DNA from: Auanema rhodensis
Lineage: Eukaryota; Animalia; Nematoda
Length of the DNA stretch: 64,000 nucleotides
NCBI GenBank assembly: GCA_964057225.1
Contig: OZ059895.1
Location: forward strand, 9,548,001 to 9,612,000
Direction: 5' to 3'
Shown here: positions 1 to 57,191 of the stretch, piece by piece
Position numbering within the stretch: position 1 is the stretch's first letter
How the letters are laid out: every line of letters begins with the position of its first letter
The notes under the pieces: generated by a model
The model's input: the letters and a program-made list of their open reading frames with translations, nothing else
Told to the model about the DNA's origin: nothing
Databases searched by the model: none
Made by a program: the position numbers and the translations under genes

Positions 1-3000
1 AAAATATGGAATTGAATAAAATAGATGAAGTGAACTTGCTTGGAAAATATGAATCAGTTTCATGTTTTAGTTTTTGAGCATCACAATATTGAAATTTAAA
101 TGTTTTTTAATGATTAAAAATTTAAAAAATGAAATTATGAAATAGTGGTAGAAATATAAAATTGTTTAAAATATGGAATTGAATAAAATAGATGAAGTGA
201 AATTGCTTGGAAAATATAAATCAGTTTCATGTTTCAGTTTTTGAGCATCACAATATTGAAATTTGAATGTTTTTTAATGATTAAAAATTTAAAAAATGAA
301 TTTATGAAATAATGGTAGAAATATAAAATTGTTTAAAATATGGAATTGAATAAAATAGATGAAGTGAACTTGCTTGGAAAATATAAATCAGTTTCATGTT
401 TCAGTTTTTGAGCATCACAATATTGAAATTTAAATGTTTTTTAATGATTAAAAATTTAAAAAATGAAATTATGAAATAGTGGTAGAAATATAAAATTGTT
501 TAAAATATGGAATTGAATAAAATAGATGAAGTGAAATTGCTTGGAAAATATAAATCAGTTTCATGTTTCAGTTTTTGAGCATCACAATATTGAAATTTGA
601 ATGTTTTTTAATGATTAAAAATTTAAAAAATGAATTTATGAAATAATGGTAGAAATATAAAATTGTTTAAAATATGGAATTGAATAAAATAGATGAAGTG
701 AACTTGCTTGGAAAATATAAATCAGTTTCATGTTTTAGTTTTTGAGCATCACAATATTGAAATTTAAATGTTTTTTAATGATTAAAAATTTAAAAAATGA
801 AATTATGAAATAGTGGTAGAAATATAAAATTGTTTAAAATATGGAATTGAATAAAATAGATGAAGTGAAATTGCTTGGAAAATATAAATCAGTTTCATGT
901 TTCAGTTTTTGAGCATCACAATATTGAAATTTGAATGTTTTTTAATGATTAAAAATTTAAAAAATGAATTTATGAAATAATGGTAGAAATATAAAATTGT
1001 TTAAAATATGGAATTGAATAAAATAGATGAAGTGAACTTGCTTGGAAAATATAAATCAGTTTCATGTTTCAGTTTTTGAGCATCACAATATTGAAATTTA
1101 AATGTTTTTTAATGATTAAAAATTTAAAAAATGAAATTATGAAATAATGGTAGAAATATAAAATTGTTTAAAATATGGAATTAAATGAAATAGATGGAGT
1201 GAAATTGCTTGGAAAATATTAATCAGTTTCATGTTTCAGTTTTTGAGCATCACAATATTGAAATTTAAATGTTTTTTAATGATTAAAAATTTAAAAAATG
1301 AAATTATGAAATAGTGGTAGAAATATAAAATTGTTTAAAATATGGAATTAAATAAAATAGATGGAGTGAAATTGCTTGGAAAATATAAATCAGTTTCATG
1401 TTTCAGTTTTTAAGCATCACAATATTGAAATTTGAATGTTTTTTTAATGATTAAAAATTTAAAAAATGAAATTATGAAATAGTGGTAGAAATATAAAATT
1501 GTTTAAAATATGGAATTAAATAAAATAGATGAAGTGAACTTGCTTGGAAAATATGAATCAGTTTCATGTTTCAGTTTTTGAGCATCACAATATTGAAATT
1601 TAAATGTTTTTTAATGATTAAAAATTTAAAAAATGAAATTATGAAATAATGGTAGAAATATAAAATTGTTTAAAATATGGAATTAAATAAAATAGATGGA
1701 GTGAAATTGCTTGCAAAATATAAATCAGTTTCATGTTTCAGTTTTTGAGCATCACAATATTGAAATTTGAATGTTTTTTTAATGATTAAAAATTTAAAAA
1801 ATGAAATTATGAAATAGTGGTAGAAATATAAAATTGTTTAAAATATGGAATTAAATAAAATAGATGGAGTGAAATTGCTTGGAAAATATAAATCAGTTTC
1901 ATGTTTTAGTTTTTGAGCATCACAATATTGAAATTTAAATGTTTTTTAATGATTAAAAATTTAAAAAATGAAATTATGAAATAGTGGTAGAAATATAAAA
2001 TTGTTTAAAATATGGAATTGAATAAAATAGATGAAGTGAAATTGCTTGGAAAATATAAATCAGTTTCATGTTTCAGTTTTTGAGCATCACAATATTGAAA
2101 TTTGAATGTTTTTTAATGATTAAAAATTTAAAAAATGAATTTATGAAATAATGGTAGAAATATAAAATTGTTTAAAATATGGAATTGAATAAAATAGATG
2201 AAGTGAACTTGCTTGGAAAATATAAATCAGTTTCATGTTTCAGTTTTTGAGCATCACAATATTGAAATTTAAATGTTTTTTAATGATTAAAAATTTAAAA
2301 AATGAAATTATGAAATAATGGTAGAAATATAAAATTGTTTAAAATATGGAATTAAATAAAATAGATGGAGTGAAATTGCTTGGAAAATATAAATCAGTTT
2401 CATGTTTCAGTTTTTAAGCATCACAATATTGAAATTTGAATGTTTTTTTAATGATTAAAAATTTAAAAAATGAAATTATGAAATAATGGTAGAAATATAA
2501 AATTGTTTAAAATATGGAATTAAATAAAATAGATGGAGTGAAATTGCTTGGAAAATATAAATCAGTTTCATGTTTCAGTTTTTAAGCATCACAATATTGA
2601 AATTTGAATGTTTTTTTAATGATTAAAAATTTAAAAAATGAAATTATGAAATAGTGGTAGAAATATAAAATTGTTTAAAATATGGAATTAAATAAAATAG
2701 ATGGAGTGAAATTGCTTGGAAAATATAAATCAGTTTCATGTTTCAGTTTTTGAGCATCACAATATTGAAATTTAAATGTTTTTTAATGATTAAAAATTTA
2801 AAAAATGAAATTATGAAATAGTGGTAGAAATATAAAATTGTTTAAAATATGGAATTGAATAAAATAGATGAAGTGAAATTGCTTGGAAAATATAAATCAG
2901 TTTCATGTTTCAGTTTTTGAGCATCACAATATTGAAATTTGAATGTTTTTTAATGATTAAAAATTTAAAAAATGAATTTATGAAATAATGGTAGAAATAT

Positions 3001-6000
3001 AAAATTGTTTAAAATATGGAATTGAATAAAATAGATGAAGTGAACTTGCTTGGAAAATATAAATCAGTTTCATGTTTCAGTTTTTGAGCATCACAATATT
3101 GAAATTTAAATGTTTTTTAATGATTAAAAATTTAAAAAATGAAATTATGAAATAATGGTAGAAATATAAAATTGTTTAAAATATGGAATTAAATAAAATA
3201 GATGGAGTGAAATTGCTTGGAAAATATAAATCAGTTTCATGTTTCAGTTTTTAAGCATCACAATATTGAAATTTGAATGTTTTTTTAATGATTAAAAATT
3301 TAAAAAATGAAATTATGAAATAGTGGTAGAAATATAAAATTGTTTTAAATATGGAATTAAATAAAATAGATGGAGTGAAATTGCTTGGAAAATATAAATC
3401 AGTTTCATGTTTCAGTTCTTGAGCATCACAATATTGAAATTTAAATGTTTTTTAATGATTAAAAATTTAAAAAATGAAATTATGAAATAGTGGTAGAAAT
3501 ATAAAACTGTTTAAAATATGGAATTAAATAAAATAGATGGAGTGAAATTGCTTGGAAAATATGAATCAGTTTCATGTTTCAGTTTTTGAGCATCACAATA
3601 TTGAAATTTAAATGTTTTTTAATGATTAAAAATTTAAAAAATGAAATTATGAAATAATGGTAGAAATATAAAATTGTTTAAAATATGGAATTAAATAAAA
3701 TAGATGGAGTGAAATTGCTTGGAAAATATAAATCAGTTTCATGTTTCAGTTTTTAAGCATCACAATATTGAAATTTAAATGTTTTTTAATGATTAAAAAT
3801 TTAAAAAATGAAATTATGAAATAGTGGTAGAAATATAAAATTGTTTAAAATATGGAATTAAATAAAATAGATGGAGTGAAATTGCTTGGAAAATATAAAT
3901 CAGTTTCATGTTTCAGTTTTTAAGCATCACAATATTGAAATTTGAATGTTTTTTTAATGATTAAAAATTTAAAAAATGAAATTATGAAATAGTGGTAGAA
4001 ATATAAAATTGTTTAAAATATGGAATTAAATAAAATAGATGGAGTGAAATTGCTTGGAAAATATAAATCAGTTTCATGTTTCAGTTTTTAAGCATCACAA
4101 TATTGAAATTTGAATGTTTTTTAATGATTAAAAATTTAAAAAATGAATTTATGAAATAATGGTAGAAATATAAAATTGTTTAAAATATGGAATTGAATAA
4201 AATAGATGAAGTGAACTTGCTTGGAAAATATAAATCAGTTTCATGTTTCAGTTTTTGAGCATCACAATATTGAAATTTAAATGTTTTTTAATGATTAAAA
4301 ATTTAAAAAATGAAATTATGAAATAGTGGTAGAAATATAAAATTGTTTAAAATATGGAATTGAATAAAATAGATGAAGTGAACTTGCTTGGAAAATATAA
4401 ATCAGTTTCATGTTTCAGTTTTTGAGCATCACAATATTGAAATTTAAATGTTTTTTAATGATTAAAAATTTAAAAAATGAAATTATGAAATAATGGTAGA
4501 AATATAAAATTGTTTAAAATATGGAATTAAATAAAATAGATGGAGTGAAATTGCTTGGAAAATATAAATCAGTTTCATGTTTCAGTTTTTGAGCATCAGA
4601 ATATTGAAATTTAAATGTTTTTTAATGATTAAAAATTTAAAAAATGAAATTATGAAATAGTGGTAGAAATATAAAACTGTTTAAAATATGGAATTAAATA
4701 AAATAGATGGAGTGAAATTGCTTGGAAAATATGAATCAGTTTCATGTTTCAGTTTTTGAGCATCACAATATTGAAATTTAAATGTTTTTTAATGATTAAA
4801 AATTTAAAAAATGAAATTATGAAATAATGGTAGAAATATAAAATTGTTTAAAATATGGAATTAAATAAAATAGATGGAGTGAAATTGCTTGGAAAATATA
4901 AATCAGTTTCATGTTTCAGTTTTTAAGCATCACAATATTGAAATTTGAATGTTTTTTTAATGATTAAAAATTTAAAAAATGAAATTATGAAATAGTGGTA
5001 GAAATATAAAATTGTTTAAAATATGGAATTAAATAAAATAGATGGAGTGAAATTGCTTGGAAAATATAAATCAGTTTCATGTTTCAGTTTTTAAGCATCA
5101 CAATATTGAAATTTAAATGTTTTTTAATGATTAAAAATTTAAAAAATGAAATTATGAAATAATGGTAGAAATATAAAATTGTTTAAAATATGGAATTAAA
5201 TAAAATAGATGGAGTGAAATTGCTTGGAAAATATAAATCAGTTTCATGTTTCAGTTTTTAAGCATCACAATATTGAAATTTGAATGTTTTTTTAATGATT
5301 AAAAATTTAAAAAATGAAATTATGAAATAATGGTAGAAATATAAAATTGTTTAAAATATGGAATTAAATAAAATAGATGGAGTGAAATTGCTTGGAAAAT
5401 ATAAATCAGTTTCATGTTTCAGTTTTTAAGCATCACAATATTGAAATTTGAATGTTTTTTTAATGATTAAAAATTTAAAAAATGAAATTATGAAATAGTG
5501 GTAGAAATATAAAATTGTTTTAAATATGGAATTAAATAAAATAGATGGAGTGAAATTGCTTGGAAAATATAAATCAGTTTCATGTTTCAGTTCTTGAGCA
5601 TCACAATATTGAAATTTAAATGTTTTTTAATGATTAAAAATTTAAAAAATGAAATTATGAAATAGTGGTAGAAATATAAAACTGTTTAAAATATGGAATT
5701 AAATAAAATAGATGGAGTGAAATTGCTTGGAAAATATGAATCAGTTTCATGTTTCAGTTTTTGAGCATCACAATATTGAAATTTAAATGTTTTTTAATGA
5801 TTAAAAATTTAGAAAATGAAATTATGAAATAATGGTAGAAATATAAAATTGTTTAAAATATGGAATTAAATAAAATAGATGGAGTGAAATTGCTTGGAAA
5901 ATATAAATCAGTTTCATGTTTCAGTTTTTAAGCATCACAATATTGAAATTTAAATGTTTTTTAATGATTAAAAATTTAAAAAATGAAATTATGAAATAGT

Positions 6001-9000
6001 GGTAGAAATATAAAATTGTTTAAAATATGGAATTAAATAAAATAGATGGAGTGAAATTGCTTGGAAAATATAAATCAGTTTCATGTTTCAGTTTTTAAGC
6101 ATCACAAAATTGAAATTTGAATGTTTTTTAATGATTAAAAATTTAAAAAATGAATTTATGAAATAATGGTAGAAATATAAAATTGTTTAAAATATGGAAT
6201 TGAATAAAATAGATGAAGTGAACTTGCTTGGAAAATATAAATCAGTTTCATGTTTCAGTTTTTGAGCATCACAATATTGAAATTTAAATGTTTTTTAATG
6301 ATTAAAAATTTAAAAAATGAAATTATGAAATAGTGGTAGAAATATAAAATTGTTTAAAATATGGAATTGAATAAAATAGATGAAGTGAACTTGCTTGGAA
6401 AATATAAATCAGTTTCATGTTTCAGTTTTTGAGCATCACAATATTGAAATTTAAATGTTTTTTAATGATTAAAAATTTAAAAAATGAAATTATGAAATAA
6501 TGGTAGAAATATAAAATTGTTTAAAATATGGAATTAAATAAAATAGATGGAGTGAAATTGCTTGGAAAATATAAATCAGTTTCATGTTTCAGTTTTTGAG
6601 CATCAGAATATTGAAATTTAAATGTTTTTTAATGATTAAAAATTTAAAAAATGAAATTATGAAATAGTGGTAGAAATATAAAACTGTTTAAAATATGGAA
6701 TTAAATAAAATAGATGGAGTGAAATTGCTTGGAAAATATGAATCAGTTTCATGTTTCAGTTTTTGAGCATCACAATATTGAAATTTAAATGTTTTTTAAT
6801 GATTAAAAATTTAAAAAATGAAATTATGAAATAATGGTAGAAATATAAAATTGTTTAAAATATGGAATTAAATAAAATAGATGGAGTGAAATTGCTTGGA
6901 AAATATAAATCAGTTTCATGTTTCAGTTTTTAAGCATCACAATATTGAAATTTGAATGTTTTTTTAATGATTAAAAATTTAAAAAATGAAATTATGAAAT
7001 AGTGGTAGAAATATAAAATTGTTTAAAATATGGAATTAAATAAAATAGATGGAGTGAAATTGCTTGGAAAATATAAATCAGTTTCATGTTTCAGTTTTTA
7101 AGCATCACAATATTGAAATTTAAATGTTTTTTAATGATTAAAAATTTAAAAAATGAAATTATGAAATAATGGTAGAAATATAAAATTGTTTAAAATATGG
7201 AATTAAATAAAATAGATGGAGTGAAATTGCTTGGAAAATATAAATCAGTTTCATGTTTCAGTTTTTAAGCATCACAATATTGAAATTTGAATGTTTTTTT
7301 AATGATTAAAAATTTAAAAAATGAAATTATGAAATAATGGTAGAAATAGAAAATTGTTTAAAATATGGAATTAAATAAAATAGATGGAGTGAAATTGCTT
7401 GGAAAATATAAATCAGTTTCATGTTTCAGTTTTTAAGCATCACAATATTGAAATTTAAATGTTTTTTAATGATTAAAAATTTAAAAAATGAAATTATGAA
7501 ATAGTGGTAGAAATATAAAATTGTTTAAAATATGGAATTAAATAAAATAGATGGAGTGAAATTGCTTGGAAAATATAAATCAGTTTCATGTTTCAGTTTT
7601 TAAGCATCACAATATTGAAATTTGAATGTTTTTTTAATGATTAAAAATTTAAAAAATGAAATTATGAAATAGTGGTAGAAATATAAAATTGTTTAAAATA
7701 TGGAATTAAATAAAATAGATGGAGTGAAATTGCTTGGAAAATATAAATCAGTTTCATGTTTCAGTTTTTAAGCATCACAATATTGAAATTTGAATGTTTT
7801 TTAATGATTAAAAATTTAAAAAATGAATTTATGAAATAATGGTAGAAATATAAAATTGTTTAAAATATGGAATTGAATAAAATAGATGAAGTGAACTTGC
7901 TTGGAAAATATAAATCAGTTTCATGTTTCAGTTTTTGAGCATCACAATATTGAAATTTAAATGTTTTTTAATGATTAAAAATTTAAAAAATGAAATTATG
8001 AAATAGTGGTAGAAATATAAAATTGTTTAAAATATGGAATTGAATAAAATAGATGAAGTGAACTTGCTTGGAAAATATAAATCAGTTTCATGTTTCAGTT
8101 TTTGAGCATCACAATATTGAAATTTAAATGTTTTTTAATGATTAAAAATTTAAAAAATGAAATTATGAAATAATGGTAGAAATATAAAATTGTTTAAAAT
8201 ATGGAATTAAATAAAATAGATGGAGTGAAATTGCTTGGAAAATATAAATCAGTTTCATGTTTCAGTTTTTGAGCATCAGAATATTGAAATTTAAATGTTT
8301 TTTAATGATTAAAAATTTAAAAAATGAAATTATGAAATAGTGGTAGAAATATAAAACTGTTTAAAATATGGAATTAAATAAAATAGATGGAGTGAAATTG
8401 CTTGGAAAATATGAATCAGTTTCATGTTTCAGTTTTTGAGCATCACAATATTGAAATTTAAATGTTTTTTAATGATTAAAAATTTAAAAAATGAAATTAT
8501 GAAATAATGGTAGAAATATAAAATTGTTTAAAATATGGAATTAAATAAAATAGATGGAGTGAAATTGCTTGGAAAATATGAATCAGTTTCATGTTTCAGT
8601 TTTTGAGCATCACAATATTGAAATTTGAATGTTTTTTAATGATTAAAAATTTAAAAAATGAATTTATGAAATAATGGTAGAAATATAAAATTGTTTAAAA
8701 TATGGAATTGAATAAAATAGATGAAGTGAACTTGCTTGGAAAATATAAATCAGTTTCATGTTTCAGTTTTTGAGCATCACAATATTGAAATTTAAATGTT
8801 TTTTAATGATTAAAAATTTAAAAAATGAAATTATGAAATAATGGTAGAAATATAAAATTGTTTAAAATATGGAATTAAATAAAATAGATGGAGTGAAATT
8901 GCTTGGAAAATATAAATCAGTTTCATGTTTCAGTTTTTGAGCATCACAATATTGAAATTTAAATGTTTTTTAATGATTAAAAATTTAAAAAATGAAATTA

Positions 9001-12000
9001 TGAAATAATGGTAGAAATATAAAATTGTTTAAAATATGGAATTAAATAAAATAGATGGAGTGAAATTGCTTGGAAAATATAAATCAGTTTCATGTTTCAG
9101 TTTTTGAGCATCAGAATATTGAAATTTAAATGTTTTTTAATGATTAAAAATTTAAAAAATGAAATTATGAAATAGTGGTAGAAATATAAAACTGTTTAAA
9201 ATATGGAATTAAATAAAATAGATGGAGTGAAATTGCTTGGAAAATATGAATCAGTTTCATGTTTCAGTTTTTGAGCATCACAATATTGAAATTTAAATGT
9301 TTTTTAATGATTAAAAATTTAAAAAATGAAATTATGAAATAGTGGTAGAAATATAAAATTGTTTAAAATATGGAATTAAATAAAATAGATGGAGTGAAAT
9401 TGCTTGGAAAATATGAATCAGTTTCATGTTTCAGTTTTTGAGCATCACAATATTGAAATTTGAATGTTTTTAATGATTAAAAATTTAAAAAATGAATTTA
9501 TGAAATAATGGTAGAAATATAAAATTGTTTAAAATATGGAATTGAATAAAATAGATGAAGTGAACTTGCTTGGAAAATATAAATCAGTTTCATGTTTCAG
9601 TTTTTGAGCATCACAATATTGAAATTTAAATGTTTTTTAATGATTAAAAATTTAAAAAATGAAATTATGAAATAATGGTAGAAATATAAAATTGTTTAAA
9701 ATATGGAATTAAATAAAATAGATGGAGTGAAATTGCTTGGAAAATATAAATCAGTTTCATGTTTCAGTTTTTGAGCATCAGAATATTGAAATTTAAATGT
9801 TTTTTAATGATTAAAAATTTAAAAAATGAAATTATGAAATAGTGGTAGAAATATAAAATTGTTTAAAATATGGAATTAAATAAAATAGATGGAGTGAAAT
9901 TGCTTGGAAAATATAAATCAGTTTCATGTTTCAGTTTTTAAGCATCACAATATTGAAATTTGAATGTTTTTTTAATGATTAAAAATTTAAAAAATGAAAT
10001 TATGAAATAGTGGTAGAAATATAAAATTGTTTAAAATATGGAATTAAATAAAATAGATGGAGTGAAATTGCTTGGAAAATATGAATCAGTTTCATGTTTC
10101 AATTTTTGAGCATCACAATATTGAAATTTAAATGTTTTTTAATGATTAAAAATTTAAAAAATGAAATTATGAAATAGTGGTAGAAATATAAAATTGTTTA
10201 AAATATGGAATTAAATAAAATAGATGGAGTGAAATTGCTTGGAAAATATAAATCAGTTTCATGTTTCAATTTTTGAGCATCACAATATTGAAATTTAAAT
10301 GTTTTTTTAATGATTAAAAATTTAAAAAATGAAATTATGAAATAGTGGTAGAAATATAAAATTGTTTAAAATATGGAATTAAATAAAATAGATGGAGTGA
10401 AATTGCTTGGAAAATATAAATCAGTTTCATGTTTCAATTTTTGAGCATCACAATATTGAAATTTGAATGTTTTTTTAATGATTAAAAATTTAAAAAATGA
10501 AATTATGAAATAGTGGTAGAAATATAAAATTGTTTAAAATATGGAATTAAATAAAATAGATGGAGTGAAATTGCTTGGAAAATATAAATCAGTTTCATGT
10601 TTCAGTTTTTGAGCATCACAATATTGAAATTTGAATGTTTTTTAATGATTAAAAATTTAAAAAATGAAATTATGAAATAATGGTAGAAATATAAAATTGT
10701 TTAAAATATGGAATTGAATAAAATAGATGAAGTGAACTTGCTTGGAAAATATGAATCAGTTTCATGTTTTAGTTTTTGAGCATCACAATAATGAAATTTA
10801 AATGTTTTTTAATGATTAAAAATTTAAAAAATGAAATTATGAAATAGTGGTAGAAATATAAAATTGTTTAAAATATGGAATTGAATAAAATAGATGAAGT
10901 GAACTTGCTTGGAAAATATAAATCAGTTTCATGTTTCAATTTTTGAGCATCACAATATTGAAATTTAAATGTTTTTTTAATGATTAAAAATTTAAAAAAT
11001 GAAATTATGAAATAGTGGTAGAAATATAAAATTGTTTAAAATATGGAATTAAATAAAATAGATGGAGTGAAATTGCTTGGAAAATATAAATCAGTTTCAT
11101 GTTTCAATTTTTGAGCATCACAATATTGAAATTTGAATGTTTTTTTAATGATTAAAAATTTAAAAAATGAAATTATGAAATAGTGGTAGAAATATAAAAT
11201 TGTTTAAAATATGGAATTAAATAAAATAGATGGAGTGAAATTGCTTGGAAAATATAAATCAGTTTCATGTTTCAGTTTTTGAGCATCAGAATATTGAAAT
11301 TTAAATGTTTTTTAATGATTAAAAATTTAAAAAATGAAATTATGAAATAGTGGTAGAAATATAAAATTGTTTAAAATATGGAATTAAATAAAATAGATGG
11401 AGTGAAATTGCTTGGAAAATATAAATCAGTTTCATGTTTCAGTTTTTAAGCATCACAATATTGAAATTTGAATGTTTTTTTAATGATTAAAAATTTAAAA
11501 AATGAAATTATGAAATAGTGGTAGAAATATAAAATTGTTTAAAATATGGAATTAAATAAAATAGATGGAGTGAAATTGCTTGGAAAATATGAATCAGTTT
11601 CATGTTTCAATTTTTGAGCATCACAATATTGAAATTTAAATGTTTTTTAATGATTAAAAATTTAAAAAATGAAATTATGAAATAGTGGTAGAAATATAAA
11701 ATTGTTTAAAATATGGAATTAAATAAAATAGATGGAGTGAAATTGCTTGGAAAATATAAATCAGTTTCATGTTTCAATTTTTGAGCATCACAATATTGAA
11801 ATTTAAATGTTTTTTTAATGATTAAAAATTTAAAAAATGAAATTATGAAATAGTGGTAGAAATATAAAATTGTTTAAAATATGGAATTAAATAAAATAGA
11901 TGGAGTGAAATTGCTTGGAAAATATAAATCAGTTTCATGTTTCAATTTTTGAGCATCACAATATTGAAATTTGAATGTTTTTTTAATGATTAAAAATTTA

Positions 12001-42000: not shown

Positions 42001-45000
42001 GTGATAGAAATTTAAATTTGTCTAAGATATGTGATTAAATAAAATAGATGGGGTGAAATTGCTTGGAAAATATAAATCAGTTTCATGTTTCAGTTTTTGA
42101 GCATCACAATATTGAAATTTAAATGTTTTTTAATGATTAAAAATTTAAAAAATGAAATTATGAAATAGTGGTAGAAATATAAAATTGTTTAAATTATGGA
42201 ATTAAATAAAATAGATGAAGTGAACTTGCTTGGAGAATATAAATCAGTTTCATGTTTCAGTTTTTGAGCATCACAATATTGAAATTTAAATGTTTTTTAA
42301 TGATTAAAAATTTAAAAAATGAAATTATGAAATAGTGGTAGAAATATAAAATTGTTTAAAATATGGAATTAAATAAAATAGATGGAGTGAAATTGCTTGG
42401 AAAATATAAATCAGTTTCATGTTTCAGTTTTTGAGCATCACAATATTGAAATTTGAATGTTTTTTAATGATTAAAAATTTAAAAAATGAAATTATGAAAT
42501 AGTGGTAGAAATATAAAATTGTTTAAAATATGGAATTAAATAAAATAGATGGAGTGAAATTGCTTGGAAAATATAAATCAGTTTCATGTTTCAGTTTTTG
42601 AGCATCACAATATTGAAATTTGAATGTTTTTTAATGATTAAAAATTTAAAAAATGAAATTATGAAATAGTGGTAGAAATATAAAATTGTTTAAAATATGG
42701 AATTAAATAAAATAGATGAAGTGAACTTGCTTGGAGAATATAAATCAGTTTCATGTTTCAGTTTTTGAGCATCACAATATTGAAATTTGAATGTTTTTTA
42801 ATGATTAAAAATTTAAAAAATGAAATTATGAAATAGTGGTAGAAATATAAAATTGTTTAAAATATGGAATTAAATAAAATAGATGAAGTGAAATTGCTTG
42901 GAAAATATAAATCAGATTCATGTTTCAGTTTTTGAGCATCACAATATTGAAATTTAAATGTTTTTTAATGATTAAAAATTTAAAAAATGAAATTATGAAA
43001 TAGTGGTAGAAATATAAAATTGTTTAAAATATGGAATTAAATAAAATAGATGAAGTGAAATTGCTTGGAGAATATAAATCAGTTTCATGTTTCAGTTTTT
43101 GAGAATCACAATATTGAAATTTAAATGTTTTTTAATGATTAAAAATTTAAAAAATGAAATTATGAAATAGTGGTAGAAATATAAAATTGTTTAAAATATG
43201 GAATTAAATAAAATAGATGGAGTGAAATTGCTTGGAAAATATAAATCAGTTTCATGTTTCAGTTTTTGAGCATCACAATATTGAAATTTGAATGTTTTTT
43301 AATGATTAAAAATTTAAAAAATGAAATTATGAAATAGTGGTAGAAATATAAAATTGTTTAAAATATGGAATTAAATAAAATAGATGGAGTGAAATTGCTT
43401 GGAAAATATAAATCAGTTTCATGTTTCAGTTTTTGAGCATCACAATATTGAAATTTGAATGTTTTTTAATGATTAAAAATTTAAAAAATGAAATTATGAA
43501 ATAGTGGTAGAAATATAAAATTGTTTAAAATATGGAATTAAATAAAATAGATGAAGTGAACTTGCTTGGAGAATATAAATCAGTTTCATGTTTCAGTTTT
43601 TGAGCATCACAATATTGAAATTTGAATGTTTTTTAATGATTAAAAATTTAAAAAATGAAATTATGAAATAGTGGTAGAAATATAAAATTGTTTAAAATAT
43701 GGAATTAAATAAAATAGATGAAGTGAAATTGCTTGGAAAATATAAATCAGATTCATGTTTCAGTTTTTGAGCATCACAATATTGAAATTTGAATGTTTTT
43801 TAATGATTAAAAATTTAAAAAATGAAATTATGAAATAGTGGTAGAAATATAAAATTGTTTAAAATATGGAATTAAATAAAATATATGAAGTGAACTTGCT
43901 TGGAAAATATAAATCAGTTTCATGTTTCAATTTTTGAGCATCACAATATTGAAATTTAAATGTTTTTTAATGATTAAAAATTTAAAAAATGAAATTATGA
44001 AATAGTGGTAGAAATATAAAATTGTTTAAAATATGGAATTAAATAAAATAGATGGAGTGAAATTGCTTGGAAAATATAAATCAGTTTCATGTTTCAGTTT
44101 TTGAGCATCACAATATTGAAATTTGAATGTTTTTTAATGATTAAAAATTTAAAAAATGAAATTATGAAATAGTGGTAGGAATATAAAATTGTTTAAAATA
44201 TGGAATTGAATAAAATAGATGGAGTGAACTTGCTTGGAAAATATAAATCAGTTTCATGTTTTAGTTTTTGAGCATCACAATATTGAAATTTAAATGTTTT
44301 TTAATGATTAAAAATTTAAAAAATGAAATTATGAAATAGTGGTAGAAATATAAAATTGTTTAAAATATGGAATAAAAAAAAATAGATGAAGTGAACTTGC
44401 TTGGAGAATATAAATCAGTTTCATGTTTCAGTTTTTGAGCATCACAATATTGAAATTTAAATGTTTTTTAATGATTAAAAATTTAAAAAATGAAATTATG
44501 AAATAGTGGTAGAAATATAAAATTGTTTAAAATATGGAATTAAATAAAATAGATGGAGTGAAATTGCTTGGAAAATATAAATCAGTTTCATGTTTCAATT
44601 TTTGAGCATCACAATATTAAAATTTAAATGATTTTTAATGATTAAAAATTTAAAGAATGAAATTATGAAATAATGGTAGAAATATGAAATTGTTTAAAAT
44701 ATGGAATCAAATAAAATAGATGGAGTGAAATTGCTTGGAAAATATAAATCAGTTTCATGTTTCAGTTTTTGAGCATCACAATATTGAAATTTGAATGTTT
44801 TTTAATGATTAAAAATTTAAAAAATGAAATTATGAAATAGTGGTAGAAATATAAAATTGTTTAAAATATGGAATTAAATAAAATAGATGGAGTGAAATTG
44901 CTTGGAAAATATAAATCAGTTTCATGTTTCAGTTTTTGAGCATCACAATATTGAAATTTGAATGTTTTTTAATGATTAAAAATTTAAAAAATGAAATTAT

Positions 45001-47736
45001 GAAATAGTGGTAGAAATATAAAATTGTTTAAAATATGGAATAAAAAAAAATAGATGAAGTGAACTTGCTTGGAGAATATAAATCAGTTTCATGTTTCAGT
45101 TTTTGAGCATCACAATATTGAAATTTAAATGTTTTTTAATGATTAAAAATTTAAAAAATGAAATTATGAAATAGTGGTAGAAATATAAAATTGTTTAAAA
45201 TATGGAATTAAATAAAATAGATGGAGTGAAATTGCTTGGAAAATATAAATCAGTTTCATGTTTCAATTTTTGAGCATCACAATATTAAAATTTAAATGAT
45301 TTTTAATGATTAAAAATTTAAAGAATGAAATTATGAAATAATGGTAGAAATATGAAATTGTTTAAAATATGGAATTAAATAAAATAGATGGAGTGAAATT
45401 GCTTGGAAAATATAAATCAGTTTCATGTTTCAGTTTTTGAGCATCACAATATTGAAATTTAAATGTTTTTTAATGATTAAAAATTTAAAAAATGAAATTA
45501 TGAAATAGTGGTAGAAATATAAAATTGTTTAAAATATGGAATTAAATAAAATAGATGGAGTGAAATTGCTTGGAAAATATAAATCAGTTTCATGTTTCAG
45601 TTTTTGAGCATCACAATATTGAAATTTGAATGTTTTTTAATGATTAAAAATTTAAAAAATGAAATTATGAAATAGTGGTAGAAATATAAAATTGTTTAAA
45701 ATATGGAATTAAATAAAATAGATGAAGTGAACTTGCTTGGAGAATATAAATCAGTTTCATGTTTCAGTTTTTGAGCATCACAATATTGAAATTTAAATGT
45801 TTTTTAATGATTAAAAATTTAAAAAATGAAATTATGAAATAGTGGTAGAAATATAAAATTGTTTAAAATATGGAATAAAAAAAAATAGATGAAGTGAACT
45901 TGCTTGGAGAATATAAATCAGTTTCATGTTTCAGTTTTTGAGCATCACAATATTGAAATTTAAATGTTTTTTAATGATTAAAAATTTAAAAAATGAAATT
46001 ATGAAATAGTGGTAGAAATATAAAATTGTTTAAAATATGGAATTAAATAAAATAGATGGAGTGAAATTGCTTGGAAAATATAAATCAGTTTCATGTTTCA
46101 ATTTTTGAGCATCACAATATTAAAATTTAAATGATTTTTAATGATTAAAAATTTAAAGAATGAAATTATGAAATAATGGTAGAAATATGAAATTGTTTAA
46201 AATATGGAATTAAATAAAATAGATGGAGTGAAATTGCTTGGAAAATATAAATCAGTTTCATGTTTCAGTTTTTGAGCATCACAATATTGAAATTTAAATG
46301 TTTTTTAATGATTAAAAATTTAAAAAATGAAATTATGAAATAGTGGTAGAAATATAAAATTGTTTAAAATATGGAATTAAATAAAATAGATGGAGTGAAA
46401 TTGCTTGGAAAATATAAATCAGTTTCATGTTTCAGTTTTTGAGCATCACAATATTGAAATTTGAATGTTTTTTAATGATTAAAAATTTAAAAAATGAAAT
46501 TATGAAATAGTGGTAGAAATATAAAATTGTTTAAAATATGGAATTAAATAAAATAGATGAAGTGAACTTGCTTGGAGAATATAAATCAGTTTCATGTTTC
46601 AGTTTTTGAGCATCACAATATTGAAATTTAAATGTTTTTTAATGATTAAAAATTTAAAAAATGAAATTATGAAATAGTGGTAGAAATATAAAATTGTTTA
46701 AAATATGGAATTAAATAAAATAGATGGAGTGAAATTGCTTGGAAAATATAAATCAGTTTCATGTTTCAGTTTTTGAGCATCACAATATTGAAATTTGAAT
46801 GTTTTTTAATGATTAAAAATTTAAAAAATGAAATTATGAAATAGTGGTAGAAATATAAAATTGTTTAAAATATGGAATTAAATAAAATAGATGGAGTGAA
46901 ATTGCTTGGAAAAAATAAATCAGTTTCATGTTTCAGTTTTTGAGCATCACAATATTGAAATTTAAATGTTTTTTAATGATTAAAAATTTAAAAAATGAAA
47001 TTATGAAATAGTGGTAGAAATTTAAATTTGTCTAAGATATGTGATTAAATAAAATAGATGGAGTGAAATTGCTTGGAAAATATAAATCAGTTTCATGTTT
47101 CAGTTTTTGAGCATCACAATATTGAAATTTAAATGTTTTTTAATGATTAAAAATTTAAAAAATGAAATTATGAAATAGTGGTAGAAATATAAAATTGTTT
47201 AAAATATGGAATTAAATAAAATAGATGGAGTGAAATTGCTTGGAAAATATAAATCAGTTTCATGTTTCAGTTTTTGAGCATCACAATATTGAAATTTGAA
47301 TGTTTTTTAATGATTAAAAATTTAAAAAATGAAATTATGAAATAGTGGTAGAAATATAAAATTGTTTAAAATATGGAATTAAATAAAATAGATGAAGTGA
47401 ACTTGCTTGGAGAATATAAATCAGTTTCATGTTTCAGTTTTTGAGCATCACAATATTGAAATTTAAATGTTTTTTAATGATTAAAAATTTAAAAAATGAA
47501 ATTATGAAATAGTGGTAGAAATATAAAATTGTTTAAAATATGGAATTAAATAAAATAGATGGAGTGAAATTGCTTGGAAAATATAAATCAGTTTTATGTT
47601 TCAGTTTTTGAGCATCACAATATTGAAATTTGAATGTTTTTTAATGATTAAAAATTTAAAAAATGAAATTATGAAATAGTGGTAGAAATATAAAATTGTT
47701 TAAAATATGGAATTAAATAAAATAGATGGAGTGAAA
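1..47736 (+). repeat. AT-rich tandem satellite array, 167-168 bp monomer, ~285 copies; continues beyond the left window edge
   Basis: AAAATATGGAATT recurs at 1, 168, 335 (period 167; 168 when the T-run is 7). No ORFs in the track. Monomers differ only by recurrent point variants. Confidence 0.99.
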
Positions 47737-48010
47737 TGGAATGAAATGGTTTAGAAAATACAAAATATTTAAATGTTTCAGTTTTTGCGCATCAAAATAT
47801 TTAAATTTAAGTGTATTTTAATGATTAAAAATTTAATAAAAAAAAGTTATAAAGTAGCGTTAGAAATTTAAAATTGTTTAAAATATGGAATTAAATAAAA
47901 GAGATGGAGTGAAATGATTTAGAAAATACAAAATATTTAAATGTGTCAGTTTTTGAGCATCAAAATATTCAAATTTAAGTTTATTTCAATGATTAAAAAT
48001 TTAATAAATG
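47737..48010 (+). repeat. Two diverged edge monomers of the satellite
   Basis: Same layout but with AAAATACAAAATATTTAAATG and CATCAAAATATT variants; these match (reverse complement) the first two monomers in copy B intron 4 at ~50940-51280. Confidence 0.9.
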
Positions 48011-48189
48011 ATTTTATGGCATGGATTTGGGATAAGATTTAATTTTATTTTTCAAAAAGCCTCCAAATGTATGATGATTTGTTTAAAAATAGCTGGCAGA
48101 ATTCAAAATTGTTCAAGATATGTAATCAAATAAAAAATATAGAAAGAAAAAAATTGTAACATGAAAAAAAAAAAGTTAAAAGCTCGTAT

Positions 48190-48605
48190 CTTTATTTGAC
48201 AAATATCGTTGAAGGATGAACCGCCTCCTAATTGTTCTCCACTAGTTGATGGCATTTCAGGATTCCATTCTCTGAAAAAAAAATTTCATGCTTTTTCATT
48301 ATACGATAGCTTACTCATTATTGCTGTCATCCAAGGTGATAACTTCAATAACCCTTGATGACGAGGGACCACTATTGGAAGTGGTTATTGCGGGGTCACA
48401 GAGCTCAAATCCACCACTCTCGGTAAGCTTTATGCGCTTACTAAAAAAAAACAAAGATGTATATTTTAAAAATATTGTTAAATTACCTGAGTTGATAAAT
48501 TTCCTCATAATCGAAACCCAACTCTTCACATACACGCTTATAACTGAAAATAAATATTTTAATTAAAAAAAAAGATAGGAAAAAACACAACCTGTTAGCA
48601 GCCAT
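48190..48605 (-). pseudogene. Maverick copy A: exons 1-4 of pPolB; intron-4 donor mutated GT>AT
   Basis: Reverse complement of 50328-50743 (coordinates sum to 98933). After exon 4 it reads AAG|atacgag versus GAG|gtacgag in copy B. Confidence 0.85.
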
Positions 48606-48835
48606 TGTATCTTGTTAGAATAAAATTATGCAAACTCTGAGAGGTAGTTATCGATATTTCCTTTTACACATTTATATTACGCTTCATTGCAAGAACAGTC
48701 AGTTGTTTTATTGTCACGTAACAATGTTGCCAACACTCAAAATTGTATCATATTACAGCTGTCAACAGTGGCAGTTGCCAATCCGTTGTTAATAAATACG
48801 CATGTATTGTTGTGGTCAGCGCACCTGTTTCAACA

Positions 48836-49807
48836 ATCTTATCGAATTAACCTTTGATATCTGTTCCATTGGAATCAACACAACTGTTTCAACAATCTTA
48901 TCGAATTAACTTTCGATATGTGTTCCATTAAGTTAGTGTATTAAAATTTTAGTAATATACACACTAAAACTATTTCTATATACACTTCTTTCCATGTAAT
49001 TTGAGAATATTAGAAGTCTTGATTCATATGGTATACAGTTATTTATTATGTTTCAATGAACAAGTGTTTTGCCATTTGGTTCAATGTAGGTCAACGTAAT
49101 TGTTTCACCAATCTTACCGAATTAATATTCGATATGTGTTCCATTAACATCTTTGATACTAAAAAGTTTGAAAATATTCGTATATACCCATGACCCCTTG
49201 GCATAGTAAGTATTCTTTAGCGTTATGGGTACTTGTTCTGTACAACTATTTATCATATTTTTATGGACACAACTTTTGCCATGTGGTACATGTGTGGATC
49301 AGCGCACCTGTTTTAACGATCTTATCGAATTAATCTTCGATATGTGTTATATTGGAAACAACACAATTGTTTGTGAATCCTATCGAATTAACCTTCGATA
49401 TGTGTTTTATTGAGTTAGTATATTAGAATATACTAATATAAAATTTAAAACAATTTCTTTAAACTATTCTTTCATGTAATTTGAAAATATTAGGCAACTT
49501 GGTACATGTGGTGTACAGCTATTTATCATATTTTAATGAACAAAACGTTTGCCATGTGGTTCTTGTGTGGGTCAGCGCAACTGTTTTAACGATCTTATCG
49601 AATTAACCTTCGATATGTGTTCCATTAACTTTTGTATTTCACATCGTTCTTATCAAATTAACCTTCGATATGTGTTTCATTAACTTTTGTATTTCATATC
49701 GTTCTTATCGAAATAAACACAAACTATAAACAATGTAAACAAATAAAATTAAAAAATAAATATATAAAATATATCTTATCGAATTAACCTTCGATATGAG
49801 TTCCATT
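48836..49807 (+). repeat. Cluster of ~8 copies (plus 1 partial) of a ~34 bp motif ATCTTATCGAATTAACCTTCGATATGTGTTCCATT with internal palindrome TATCGAA-N6-TTCGATA
   Basis: Copies start near 48836, 48895, 49111, 49319, 49377, 49592, 49647 and 49773 (partial at 49703). They lie in a diverged duplication with ~480 bp offset. Confidence 0.9.
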
Positions 49808-49844
49808 GATTAACCCATAAGAGGTACGGTGAACATAATAATTA

Positions 49845-50165
49845 GCTTTTATATATATATTCAATTTTTATAAATTAAAACAAAAACAATATATATTAAA
49901 AAGTTTATTCAAATGTATAATATTGAAAATACATAAAAAAAAATTAATTTTAATAATATTTTAAAAATATATAAAATACATTCAAAAAGTAATAATTAAA
50001 TTATAATATTTAAAACATATATAAATATTAAAATACATTTAAAAAGAAATAATTTTAAAAATATTTACAAATACAATTAACAAATATATAAATAATAAAA
50101 ATTCATTTTGAAAATATTAAAAAAAATAATTTTAAAAATGATTTAAAAAAAAATATTATGCATTT
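49845..50165. repeat. Extremely AT-rich low-complexity tract with degenerate AAAATACATT units
   Basis: Almost no G/C; recurring AAATACATT/AATAATTTTAAAA segments. Confidence 0.7.
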
Positions 50166-50939
50166 TGATCCATGCTGTAATATGATACAATTTTGAGTGT
50201 TGGCAACATTGTTACGTGACAATAAAACAACTGACTGTTCTTGCAATGAAGCGTAATATAAATGTGTAAAAGGAAATATCGATAACTACCTCTCAGAGTT
50301 TGCATAATTTTATTCTAACAAGATACAATGGCTGCTAACAGGTTGTGTTTTTTCCTATCTTTTTTTTTAATTAAAATATTTATTTTCAGTTATAAGCGTG
50401 TATGTGAAGAGTTGGGTTTCGATTATGAGGAAATTTATCAACTCAGGTAATTTAACAATATTTTTAAAATATACATCTTTGTTTTTTTTTAGTAAGCGCA
50501 TAAAGCTTACCGAGAGTGGTGGATTTGAGCTCTGTGACCCCGCAATAACCACTTCCAATAGTGGTCCCTCGTCATCAAGGGTTATTGAAGTTATCACCTT
50601 GGATGACAGCAATAATGAGTAAGCTATCGTATAATGAAAAAGCATGAAATTTTTTTTTCAGAGAATGGAATCCTGAAATGCCATCAACTAGTGGAGAACA
50701 ATTAGGAGGCGGTTCATCCTTCAACGATATTTGTCAAATAGAGGTACGAGCTTTTCCTTTTTTTTTCATGTTACAATTCTTCTCACTCTATATCTTTTAT
50801 TTGAATACATGTCTTGAACAGTTTTGAATTTTACCAGTTATTTTTAAACAAAACATCATACATTTGGAGGCTTTTTGAAAAATAAATGTTAAAGTAATGA
50901 ATAAAATTGAATCTTATCACAAATCCATAGCATAATATC

Positions 50940-51610
50940 ATTTATTGAATTTTTAATCATTGAAATACATTCAAATTTAAATATTTTGATGTTTAAAAAC
51001 TGAAACATTTAAATGTTTTATATTTTCTAAACCATTTCACTCCATCTCTTTTATTTAATCCCTATGTTTAAACAATTTTAAATTTCTATCACTACTTTAT
51101 AATTTTCATTTATTGAATATTTAATCATTAAAATACATTTAAATTTAAATATTTTGATGTTCAAAAACTGAAACATTTAAATGTTTTATATTTTCTAGCC
51201 CATTTCACTCCATCTCTTTTATTTAATCCCATATCTTGAACAATTTTTAATTTCTACCACGATTTCATAAATTTCGTTTATTAAATTTTTAATCATTAAA
51301 AAAAAACATTTAAATTTCAATATTGTGATGCTCAAAAACTGAAACATGACATTGATTTATATTTTCTGAGCCATTTCACTTCATCTCTTTTATTTAATCA
51401 CATATCTTGAACAATTTTTAATTTCTATCACTTTTTTATAATTTCGTTTATTAAATTTTTAATCATTAAAAAAAAACATTTAAATTTCAATATTGTGATG
51501 CTCAAAAACAGAAACATTTCACTCCAGCTCTTTTATTTAATCCCATATTTTAAACAATTTTATATTTCCACCATTATTTAATTTTTATTTATTAAATTTT
51601 TGAACATTAA
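50940..51610 (-). repeat. ~4 diverged satellite monomers (reverse orientation) inside pPolB intron 4 (50744-51693)
   Basis: TTAATCATT at 50953, 51121, 51289 and 51459 (spacing 168-170). AATATTGTGATGCTCAAAAACTGAAACATG is the reverse complement of the array monomer. Confidence 0.93.
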
Positions 51611-53663
51611 AAAAAAACTAAAACTATTTTCATTTAAACTTTAAAAAAAAATAAAAAAAGCATGTAAACTGTTATAAATGTTGTTTATTATAGTGGTCAC
51701 ACCGGCGCATAAAACGCTCCGGTCGTTTTCCCAACGTGGTCGTTCGATCGCTCACGTTCCCACACTTGGAAACTATTGATGAACCATTGCATGTTATCAT
51801 ACCGCGGTTATTCAACGAATTCCTTGATCGTTGTCTTGCTGAAAGCGGTGTGCCTGATAAGCAAAAAGCCATATCTTGTTTATCAATTGAGCACCCTTCA
51901 TTTGAAAATGGCTCCATATTTATGGACTTTCGTAAAGGGGAGCATCTGGATATCGTAGCCATTATGAATGCCATCAGCAAGGTGCAGCAATCAAAACGAG
52001 AGGCTGTAATCAGCCAGGCAATGAATATTGAGATGTATAAGTTTGATGAAAGGCCAGCGCAACCAAATCTGCTGCCTGGTGAAGGTAGAGTCGGGTTTTA
52101 TTTTGACCCCGAACACAAAATACCTGGAACCATTGCCAACACTGACTCACATTGTCTGGCTAGATCCGCAGTTGTGGGAATGTGGAAAGCTGACGAACTG
52201 GCCACTGAAGATGGCGATGAGAAACGAAGGCTGCAAAACCTTCGTCGCAATTACATCTTATTGCCAAACCAGCCACACCATATCAATTTATTAACTAGGT
52301 GTGGCATTTCCGAAAAATTGCCAAATTATAATTTGATTCATTTAAACATTATTGCCAGCTGTAGTATAAACTATAAGTTTGTAGTATATGCTAGTCCGCC
52401 TGGACAACGTATGTACACTATCCAGAAAATATTTAATGAAGCGGCTAGCAAATTGGTAACACTAGGTTACCGTAATAACCACTATGATTGTATTACAGAT
52501 GGTAGTCGTTCAAAAATTTTTGACGGTATTATATGTCAACACTGTAAGTTATCTTACAATACAGTGTTGCATAGATGTAAAGCCAAATGTAAAAAATGCC
52601 ACACCTATAATTGTAATGCGATGAAGAATGTGGTTGAGAGTAGCGTGAGGTGTGCAAGGTGATAATGAATGGTCTGTAACAGATCGTTTTCTTGATTGGT
52701 TGCTCAACTTTTCTGAGAATGATAATGCAATTTTGATTGCGCATAATGGCCCCCGCTTTGACATACATTTTTTGGTGTCTAGGCTTATACATCGTGCAAT
52801 ATATCCTGACCCCATTTTAAATGGGACCTAGATTATTAGCATGCTTGTTAAGCCTTTAAGAGGTCAAAATATTAATCATTTATATTTTGAAGATAGTTAT
52901 TTATTAGTGCCTTTACCCTTATCAGCGTTATTCAAAGCATTTGGTGTACCTGATATGATTAAAGGACAGTTTACCTCTTTAACCATCCAATAAATTATGG
53001 CAAAGTGCTACCATTCCTGCCACCAAAACATTACTATTGTACTGCTAGAATGAAAGCCGAAGACCTTGCTTCATTCAATGTTTGGTATGAGGAGCGTAAT
53101 CAAAGCGCATTTTATTTTGATGAGGAGCTACTGGAATATTGTTGGACAGTTCGTATTTTAACCAACTGTATGAAAGTATACATGAAGTTGGCTACCGCCA
53201 CCACTGGCTGGAATCCTGTCATACAATGCATGACATTTGCCAGTTTTTCTTTATTCCAGGCAAGTTTTCAAAAATGCAAGCATTGTTTAAAACAAATGTG
53301 TTTTAGTTGAAGATGAACCACTTTAAAAAAAATCAAGTGAGTATTCTGCCTGAGACTGGTTATTATGCCGGCCAGAAGCAGAGTATAATTGCCATAAAAT
53401 ACATAAAATGGCTAGAACAAGGATTAGGCCGCCCATTAATGCATAAGCTTAATGATGGTGAATTTGTTGTGAGAGTAGATGGCCAACGCTATCTACTTGA
53501 TGCTTATGACAGTGTGGCTATTCACGGCTATGAGGTGAGTAATTTGTAAAAAATGTAAAAAATGAAAATTTTTGTAGTTTAATGGCTGTATTTATCATGG
53601 TTGCCCCAAGTGCACCAACACTGCTATTGCACCAGGCAGAAATGGTGAAACAATGAAAGATGT

Positions 53664-53860
53664 AACCAATAAAATATCAAAAGAATATTGAAAAAATTTA
53701 AAAAATATATAAAAATACATTTAAAAAGAAATAATTTTTCCGAAAACGCGGAAAAAATGATTTTGACAGCTGACGCCCCCAAAAGTATGATTTTAGCAGC
53801 TGACGCCTTCAAAAGTATGTTTTTAGCAACTGTTTGGGGGCGTGGTTAGTAAATTTGGCA
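53664..53860. other. Non-coding filler replacing the middle of pPolB; contains ~2.5 copies of a 30-bp repeat and a GC box
   Basis: ATGATTTTGACAGCTGACGCCCCCAAAAGT-like units from 53757. TTTGGGGGCGT is the inverse of ACGCCCCCAAA. 53712-53738 is identical to 50030-50056. Confidence 0.7.
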
Positions 53861-55365: not shown

Positions 55366-55632
55366 TATCTTTTCTGTAGCTTGGGTTATAAAATGAACAA
55401 GTACATTCGTCATTATCTTGCCAAATATAAAAATGTAAAAGTTAATACTTGCAAACCACAACGCATAATTGAATACACTTGTGGTGGTTATGCAATATTG
55501 GTAATACTAATGTTGTCAGCTGGTAATACATTTGAAAGCATTTCTTCATTTTTTAAACTATTACAAAACGATGATGTCTTTATTAAAGCGTTTATGCATA
55601 AAGTATTCGACTATATATTATCAAGCATATGA
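55364..55632 (+). pseudogene. Adenain-family cysteine protease, 5'-truncated
   Basis: YLFCSLG..KPQRIIEYTCGGY..NDD matches the C-terminal half of 60549-61004; the catalytic His region is deleted. Confidence 0.88.
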
Positions 55633-55678
55633 TCAACTTCGCCATTAAAACGTCACCTGCTACATTAGGTGGTCAGTT

Positions 55679-55849: not shown

Positions 55850-55890
55850 AAGTGAGTTGACTGTGTGTGGTTGTTTTTTATTTTCCTTTA

Positions 55891-56355: not shown

Positions 56356-56360
56356 AACAT

Positions 56361-57188: not shown

Positions 57189-57191
57189 CAC

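What the first reader, a model, noticed from the sequence alone, without database searches (positions are those of the whole stretch)
1..51693. A >47 kb satellite array appears to have grown out of an intron of a Maverick DNA polymerase gene
Seen: copy B pPolB intron 4 (GT 50744, AG 51693, phase 0, joining ..CQIE|WSHR.. in frame) holds ~190 bp of unique sequence followed by ~4 monomers of the 167-bp unit. Inverted copy A has the same exons 1-4, the same ~180 bp unique intron start and the same two diverged monomers, then ~285 homogenised monomers. Inference: the unexpanded source and the expanded product lie side by side, so a satellite was born from a minisatellite in a virus-like transposon intron. 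TE-derived satellites are known in general; I do not know of a case from a Maverick pPolB intron.
Basis: partly seen in the sequence, partly recalled or inferred. Interest (0 to 1): 0.92.

Follow-up and report, generated by a model that had tools for sequence, protein, structure and literature searches.

The report
Satellite grown from Maverick intron repeat
A 48-kb block of 167-base tandem repeats is joined to a broken copy of a virus-like nematode transposon, and it likely grew from a four-unit repeat that a sister copy still carries inside a predicted intron of its DNA polymerase gene, which would add this transposon class to the known sources of satellite DNA.

Summary
The anatomy is largely confirmed. 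A 167-bp array (1-48018, open at the left) runs into minus-strand copy A of a nematode Maverick polymerase gene. Inverted copy B has the same 5' exons and a 950-bp predicted intron 4 holding four units. Both copies show the same unit order: two type-I 5' halves, then type II. Only type II is amplified, and array units group with B3/B4 (support 96-100).

Corrections: B is a paralogue about 12% diverged in the intron, not the source. The copies lie side by side through an inverted junction with a 567-bp identical arm. A lacks the intron-4 donor, its second unit is a type-I/array chimera, and the 'unique' intron start holds a degenerate unit piece.

Descent of the satellite from the intron repeat is the best reading (about 0.7); growth in place in copy A is about 0.55. 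Capture of an older host satellite remains (about 0.23), because the array's far end, the genome and RNA could not be examined. Satellites from transposon-internal repeats are known; eight literature searches listed no Maverick case.

The parts
1..47735 (-). Homogenised satellite array of type-II 167-bp units, open at the window's left end; strand given as the sense of copy A's intron; right boundary approximate, inside unit A2
15009..25756 (-). Zone holding the 7 units of 217 bp (internal duplication of about 48 bp) and most 170-bp units
41977..42143 (-). Array unit A36, with B3's letter at 8 of the 14 3'-half sites where B3 differs from the array majority
46987..47153 (-). Array unit A6, with B3's letter at 4 of those 14 sites
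47655..47831 (-). Unit A2: type-I 5' half, 10-bp duplication, then a 3' half identical to the array neighbour (the junction)
47832..47999 (-). Unit A1, type I
48000..48189 (-). Start of intron 4 in copy A; no canonical donor; 22 of 190 bases differ from B
48190..48605 (-). Copy A, predicted polymerase exons 1-4 (48592-48605, 48487-48543, 48315-48440, 48190-48271)
48193..48759 (-). Left arm of the 567-bp perfect inverted repeat
48760..50173 (.). 1414-bp spacer between the arms, with 8 direct copies of a short motif that holds a small inverted repeat; no inverted symmetry overall
50174..50740 (+). Right arm of the 567-bp perfect inverted repeat
50328..50743 (+). Copy B, predicted polymerase exons 1-4 with introns of 48, 46 and 43 bp; exon 4 encodes a QLGGG motif
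50744..51693 (+). Copy B, predicted intron 4 (950 bp, phase 0)
50783..50847 (+). Degenerate piece of the unit's 3' half inside the 'unique' intron start
50950..51285 (+). Intron units B1 and B2, type I
51286..51597 (+). Intron units B3 and B4, type II; B4 is the closest relative of the array (mean 8.1% apart)
51694..54863 (+). Copy B, exon 5 and the rest of the protein-primed family B polymerase, with further short introns; broken by stops and frame changes (open frames end at 52662 and 52831)
54861..58093 (.). Rest of copy B: major capsid fragment (54861-55364, -), zinc-finger-like frame (55861-56355, +), packaging-ATPase-like frame (57331-57915, +)
58094..64000 (.). Copy C, inverted to B and 85-87% alike in its outer arm: ATPase with deletion (-), protease-like frame (60549-61004, -), major capsid (61508-62802, +), polymerase 3' part (-) running off the window

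Best explanation
The array is made of the same 167-bp unit that sits as four copies in the predicted intron 4 of a nematode Maverick polymerase gene, and it likely grew from that intron repeat, likely in place in the broken copy A, by repeated unequal exchange or slippage. Shown: unit order, relatedness, the junction, and loss of the donor in A. Inferred steps: (1) a family ancestor had a short, already diverged repeat in this intron (degenerate piece, type I, type I, type II). (2) In the A lineage the type-II unit was multiplied hundreds of times; units nearest the unique flank escaped homogenisation. (3) The copy was probably already dead, so intron size was unconstrained. (4) A separate inverted rearrangement or gene conversion made the 567-bp identical arm and set A head-to-head with the paralogue B.
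For: Five type-I/type-II diagnostic columns are shared by B3 and 259-275 of 275 array units; the other 3 of 8 columns tested are private to B3 or differ again in the array. The order I, I, II is the same in A and B, and 0 of 275 array units has a type-I 5' half. In trees of 39 array units plus B1-B4, A1 and A2, the array joins B3+B4 with support 96 (whole unit) and 100 (5' half). Array-to-B4 distance (mean 8.1%; unit A3 10 of 138) is no larger than the A/B distance at matching places (51 of 440, Fisher P 0.20). It is smaller than the 11-16% among B's own units, whereas capture of four units from one homogeneous host array predicts the reverse unless later conversion intervened. A degenerate unit piece at the intron start points to long residence there. 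Two of 275 array units near the junction keep B3-type 3' letters (8 and 4 of 14 sites; the other 273 have 0 or 1). In 4 of 4 public DNA runs laid, contigs bridge the intron's 3' end to exon 5, and type-I-like loose ends join the unit's 3' half (12, 5, 4 and 2 contigs). The intron end is thus a feature of a multi-copy family, and type-I units are multi-copy too.
Against: The array's left end is outside the window and no genome is held, so exon 5 on the far side is not shown. None of the 32 pieces listed of about 900 laid runs from a unit through to exon 5. The junction unit A2 is a chimera, which recombination with an existing array would also make. The B3-type tracts in the array may be conversions from other copies; such exchange would blur dating by distance. 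The 3'-half tree puts B3 with B2, not with the array. Distance to B4 does not rise away from the junction; it falls slightly (rho -0.37). Single contigs in X1 and X2 join unit pieces to sequence unlike the stretch laid, so units may also lie at other kinds of junction. Exons 1-4 have no homologue support beyond frame, intron shape and a motif seen in 2 of 8 homologues.
Confidence: 0.55

Rival explanations
1. Host satellite first. An older host satellite was captured into the intron of a Maverick ancestor. Copy A's 5' part was later joined to a free-standing host array by ectopic recombination inside unit 2.
For: The junction unit is a chimera with a 10-bp duplication. Array-type letters appear in 4 of 4 runs laid, under three organism labels. 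Summed depth over the unit exceeds every exon-5 bin in 4 of 4 runs, although the tool warns this is no copy number. A few contigs join unit pieces to unlike sequence. One contig about 85% like B continues upstream of the acceptor with 255 letters that do not lay on the stretch. One-sided 'intermediate' arrays are ascribed to such recombination for oyster Helitrons (PMC12628747, section 3).
Against: The array is closer to B4 and B3 than the intron units are to each other, and no further from B4 than A is from B. Capture would need a long type-I branch to arise after capture while type II stayed within 4-7% (5' half) of a drifting host array. A degenerate unit lies inside the intron start.
Confidence: 0.23
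2. Intron-born but not in place. The satellite arose from intron 4 of another family copy, and copy A's 5' part was joined to it afterwards by recombination between units.
For: It explains the nesting among intron units and the chimeric junction equally well. The window shows two inverted junctions in which near-identical inner arms switch abruptly to diverged outer arms (0 of 567 then about 12%; 7 of 421 then 214 of 2067), so exchange between family copies is frequent here.
Against: It needs one more event than growth in place. B3-type tracts lie only in units 6 and 36 from the junction, as relics displaced from it would.
Confidence: 0.17
3. Assembly artefact. The array-to-copy-A junction or the 567-bp perfect inverted arm is a mis-join or a chimeric long read.
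For: A perfect inverted arm beside a long satellite is a place where assemblies fail. No read support for this exact locus was obtained.
Against: A's intron start and units differ from B's by about 12% in an orderly way. The array holds 122 distinct unit sequences among 284, with local duplication structure. Type-I-like ends of A's kind occur in 4 of 4 public runs.
Confidence: 0.05

Closest known systems
Satellites expanded from tandem arrays inside LTR retrotransposons of Lathyrus sativus (PMC7004042; abstract read)
   Same: Short arrays inside a dispersed element that occasionally expand into long satellite arrays (9 of 11 satellites there).
   Different: Here the element is a Maverick in a nematode, and the seed lies in a predicted spliceosomal intron of the polymerase gene. 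Only one expanded locus, with one end, was seen.
Tetris foldback transposon of Drosophila virilis (PMC4079207; search listing and start of abstract) and Helitron/Helentron central arrays, 154TR, Cg170/HindIII (PMC12628747; passages and section 3)
   Same: Element-borne short arrays and long arrays of one unit coexist; 'intermediate' arrays have element sequence on one side only, as seen here.
   Different: Different element class. The review's main text has no occurrence of 'Maverick' or 'Polinton'. Rolling-circle replication, proposed for Helitrons, is not the expected route here (own knowledge).
CapA satellite of New World monkeys (10.1101/213868; search listing only)
   Same: By its title, a major satellite that arose from an intronic sequence.
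   Different: There the unit is about 1,500 bp (start of abstract) and, from recall, the intron is of a host gene; here it is a 167-bp unit already tandem in a mobile element's intron.
Nematode Mavericks/Polintons (10.1101/2022.07.12.499685 and PMC10748475; passages)
   Same: Protein-primed polymerase, packaging ATPase, adenovirus-like protease and double jelly-roll capsid. The ATPase is 79% like a protein named from Auanema sp. JU1783 and 46% like one from Caenorhabditis remanei.
   Different: Core genes of the C. plicata element are described as intronless; this polymerase is split by short introns. [quoted passage not shown] No integrase or element ends were found in the window.

Membership tests
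Maverick/Polinton | [quoted passage not shown] | tested here: met
   PF03175 above cut-off on 53853-54479 (E 2e-10) and 63265-63999. Exon 5 has no Pfam hit itself, but 3 of its 14 homologues scanned carry PF03175 above cut-off and align collinearly.
Maverick/Polinton | Double jelly-roll major capsid protein | tested here: met
   A natural homologue 71-73% like 61508-62799 folds like Sputnik, PBCV-1 and mavirus capsids (best E 3.5e-13; model pLDDT 54.5). The window's own frame was not folded.
Maverick/Polinton | A32-like packaging ATPase | tested here: inconclusive
   PF04665 at E 0.006, below cut-off; 1 of 12 homologues carries PF04665.
Maverick/Polinton | Adenovirus-like cysteine protease | tested here: inconclusive
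   PF00770 at E 0.0012, below cut-off, on 60552-61004.
Maverick/Polinton | Minor capsid protein | not tested
   The 293-aa frame 58958-59839 has no Pfam hit; calling it the minor capsid is from recall of Maverick gene sets.
Maverick/Polinton | Retroviral-like integrase | tested here: inconclusive
   None among the 18 of 76 listed frames scanned. All three copies are cut by junctions or by the window edge.
Maverick/Polinton | Terminal inverted repeats and target-site duplication | not testable with these tools
   No complete element in the window and no genome held. The 567-bp arms face outward from a spacer and contain exons, so they are not shown to be element ends.
Satellite DNA | Long head-to-tail array of a homogenised unit | tested here: met
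   At least 48 kb, 284 complete units, 96.9% mean identity.
Transposon-derived satellite (expansion of an internal array) | Same unit present as a short array inside the element | tested here: met
   Four units in intron 4 of copy B, 83-92% like the array.
Transposon-derived satellite (expansion of an internal array) | Element-borne units older than, and ancestral to, the long array | tested here: inconclusive
   Nesting and distances favour it, but the tree has no outside root and conversion is possible.
Transposon-derived satellite (expansion of an internal array) | Long array flanked by element sequence on both sides | not testable with these tools
   Left end outside the window; no genome.
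Spliceosomal intron (intron 4) | Removed from the RNA | not testable with these tools
   Canonical ends and frame in B; no RNA holder listed.

The most novel reading that the evidence does not exclude
An intron-bearing nematode Maverick family carries a satellite seed in its polymerase intron. Dead copies inflate that seed into arrays of tens of kilobases, independently in several species. Mavericks are reported to move between nematode species (10.1101/2022.07.12.499685), so the same satellite could be delivered horizontally and amplified more than once, which would mimic an ancestral satellite library.
Probability: 0.15. Interest if true: 0.8.

Novelty: new variant of a known kind. Interest (0 to 1): 0.5.

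Why it matters
The origin of a satellite can rarely be traced. Here the short precursor repeat, its unit order, the junction and the amplified class can all be read in one window. If the far end confirms it, this is a clean case of which unit of a small repeat gets amplified (the last class, not those next to the unique flank) and under what condition (a dead element). It would add Mavericks, and introns of a mobile element's core gene, to the known satellite sources. The general process is already well documented, so the gain is a new source and a testable case rather than a new mechanism.

Tried and rejected
No whole genome is held, so the array's left end, copy C's intron 4 and a genome-wide unit search were out of reach.

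Sequencing runs: no RNA holder was listed among 14 rows; this is no evidence either way. No public contigs were laid on the exon-4 side of the intron, so that side is open.

Collection scans found nothing. Exon 5 in metagenome contigs: 58 pattern hits, 0 confirmed. A 30-base unit pattern: 0 in metagenome contigs and 0 in viral contigs. The capsid alignment in viral contigs: 26 hits, 0 confirmed. A word-based protein search with exon 5 among longer proteins gave 0 of 1493 candidates; the HMMER search found 26. The Atlas gave only unnamed clusters. Rfam on 47000-52000 gave 0; Pfam on 4 spacer frames gave nothing above cut-off. Three look-ups of earlier findings returned nothing.

Likeness of the intron's 3' end to the unit is inconclusive (1-16% of 500 shuffles reach the score). 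No dominant higher-order period appears at lags 1-40. The exon coordinates were off by one and were redone.

Match to a published satellite: no unit of 167 bp among the 83 Meloidogyne satellites listed in PMC9673304 (supplement part 1 of 3). The motif search of that supplement says little, because the part read holds no sequences as text. The host genus is not established.

Rejected: B as the direct source of the array (about 12% apart from A in the intron), and the 567-bp arms as element ends (they contain exons).
Full report
OBSERVATION. The window's first 48 kb is one array of a 167-bp unit (62-48018, 285.4 copies), 19% G+C with a constant skew. An anchor scan gives 284 complete units with 122 distinct sequences; 7 units are 217 bp long through an internal duplication. 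Random array pairs are 96.9% alike (600 pairs). Self-comparison of 47000-64000 shows an inverted match of 47303-48759 to 50174-51614 and further inverted matches around 58200.

THE ELEMENT. In copy B, five predicted exons are each free of stops in one running frame. They are separated by introns of 48, 46, 43 and 950 bp with canonical ends; intron 4 is 50744-51693, phase 0. Exon 5 (322 aa) has no Pfam hit but finds 26 homologues. Of 14 scanned, 3 carry PF03175 above cut-off, and tblastn lays them collinearly over 51.7-54.9 kb, with breaks at short AT-rich introns and at frame changes. The window also holds an ATPase-like and a protease-like frame (weak Pfam hits) and a capsid gene whose 73% homologue folds as a double jelly roll. 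The two named ATPase relatives among 12 are from nematodes (79% Auanema sp., 46% C. remanei), so this is a nematode Maverick; the host genus is not established. No integrase or element end was found. Exons 1-4 rest on frame, intron shape and a QLGGG motif; a like motif stands in 2 of 8 homologues with an N-terminal extension. No RNA holder was listed, so intron 4 is predicted. B is broken further down: open frames end at 52662 and 52831.

A AGAINST B. The copies are identical over 567 of 567 bases (exons 1-4 and upstream). They then differ at 22 of 190 bases in the intron start and at 21 of 168 in unit 1. A has no canonical donor where intron 4 begins. The second inverted junction, near 58200, has the same make-up: 7 of 421 differences in the inner arm and 214 of 2067 outside. 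I infer that the inner arms were copied recently by fold-back or conversion and that the outer parts come from diverged family members. B is therefore a paralogue of the array-bearing copy, not its source.

UNIT CLASSES. The alignment of B1-B4 with 277 units of A (the 7 long units left out) shows two classes of 5' half. Type I occurs in B1, B2, A1 and A2; type II in B3, B4 and all later units of A. Of 8 columns where all four type-I units agree and B3 differs, 5 have B3's letter in 259-275 of 275 array units; at 2 the array has the type-I letter, and at 1 it mostly has a third letter. No array unit of 275 has a type-I 5' half. Mean distances to the array are B4 8.1%, B3 12.1%, B2 14.9% and B1 16.6%; B's own units differ by 11-16%. 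Trees of 39 array units (every third of 116 distinct ones) plus the six edge units join the array to B3+B4 with support 96, and 100 for the 5' half. The 3'-half tree instead groups B2 with B3, and A2 with the array. A2 is a chimera: 15 differences from its neighbour in columns 20-97, none beyond, and a 10-bp duplication at the switch. Units A36 and A6 carry B3's letter at 8 and 4 of 14 3'-half sites, against 0 or 1 in the other 273; they are relics or conversions. The intron start holds a 66-bp degenerate unit piece (borderline in A). Distance to B4 does not grow away from the junction.

OTHER GENOMES. Eleven of 14 listed runs hold part of 50174-57450: 3 studies, 3 organism labels, shares 0.22-0.34. 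Four of them were laid as contigs on 51490-52640. Exon 5 is covered by many variant contigs in all four, mostly 90-99% like B. Listed pieces bridge the intron's 3' end to exon 5 in 4 of 4 runs. Type-I-like loose ends on the unit's 3' half occur in 4 of 4, and the array's letters at two sites in B4 also occur in 4 of 4 (loose ends judged by eye). Summed depth over the unit exceeds the highest exon-5 bin in all four (X1 362,567 against 53,316; X2 24,409 against 13,483; X6 57,711 against 2,806; X7 15,726 against 966). The tool warns that this is no copy number, so it is a hint of amplification only. Against my reading: none of the 32 listed pieces, of about 900, runs from a unit to exon 5; single contigs in X1 and X2 join unit pieces to unlike sequence; one X2 contig 96% like B has other sequence upstream of 51619; and one X6 contig 85% like B has 255 unlike letters upstream of the acceptor region.

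MECHANISM. The most likely history starts with a family ancestor whose intron 4 held a short, already diverged repeat. In the lineage of copy A, probably after it had died, the last class of unit was multiplied and homogenised by unequal exchange or slippage, while the units beside the unique flank were left behind (0.55). The same descent with amplification in another copy and later joining to A is 0.17. Capture of an older host satellite with later recombination is 0.23. It fits the chimeric junction, but must explain why the array is nearer to B4 than B's units are to each other, and no further from B4 than A is from B (10 of 138 against 51 of 440, P 0.20). Conversion between element-borne and array units could do that. 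A mis-join is 0.05.

WHAT IS KNOWN. Expansion of short arrays inside transposons into satellites is documented for LTR elements (PMC7004042, abstract), Tetris (PMC4079207, listing) and Helitrons. One-sided intermediate arrays are included (PMC12628747, passages and section 3). An intronic origin is reported for CapA (10.1101/213868, listing). Eight searches listed no title or abstract start describing a satellite from a Maverick or Polinton. I read passages of only four of the listed papers plus one abstract; most subscription papers are not in the library, and preprint supplements are closed. Two nematode Maverick papers have no occurrence of 'satellite', and one describes intronless core genes (passages). 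The Meloidogyne satellitome (PMC9673304; passages and supplement part 1 of 3) lists no 167-bp unit, and its sequences were not readable as text.

VERDICT. The feature is real and its anatomy mostly as reported. The origin is probable but unproven. It is a new variant of a known process; interest 0.5.

Noticed in passing
window 50328-54863: The polymerase gene of this Maverick is split by many short AT-rich introns, some at matching places in the 85%-alike copy C, whereas core genes of a Caenorhabditis element are described as intronless. Intron gain in a virus-like element's core gene may deserve its own look.
   Followed up: partly
window 48193-50740 and 57673-58719: Two inverted junctions between Maverick copies (head-to-head, then tail-to-tail) have near-identical inner arms that switch abruptly to 85-89% identity. 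At the second, the spacer continues a reading frame on one strand only, and the switch coincides with a deletion of about 219 bp in the ATPase.
   Followed up: partly
window 48760-50173: The spacer holds 8 direct copies of a 24-base motif with a small inverted repeat, within larger 81%-alike duplications; several copies translate to similar cysteine-bearing peptides. No Pfam hit above cut-off and no Rfam hit.
   Followed up: partly
window 53757-53832: A second small tandem repeat (30 bp, 2.5 copies) lies in another predicted intron of the same polymerase gene, so introns of this family may breed repeats generally.
   Followed up: no
window 53669-53738 and the spacer's right part: An AT-rich piece in that intron is 81-85% like a piece of the spacer; it may be chance in low-complexity DNA.
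   Followed up: no
window 15009-25756: All 7 units of 217 bp and most 170-bp units cluster in the middle of the array, with local duplications of 0.8-3.7 kb: a sub-domain that spread by block duplication.
   Followed up: partly
window 54861-55364: A capsid fragment of copy B is 95.5% like copy C's capsid gene, while the neighbouring arms are 85-87% alike: another sign of patchy exchange between copies.
   Followed up: no
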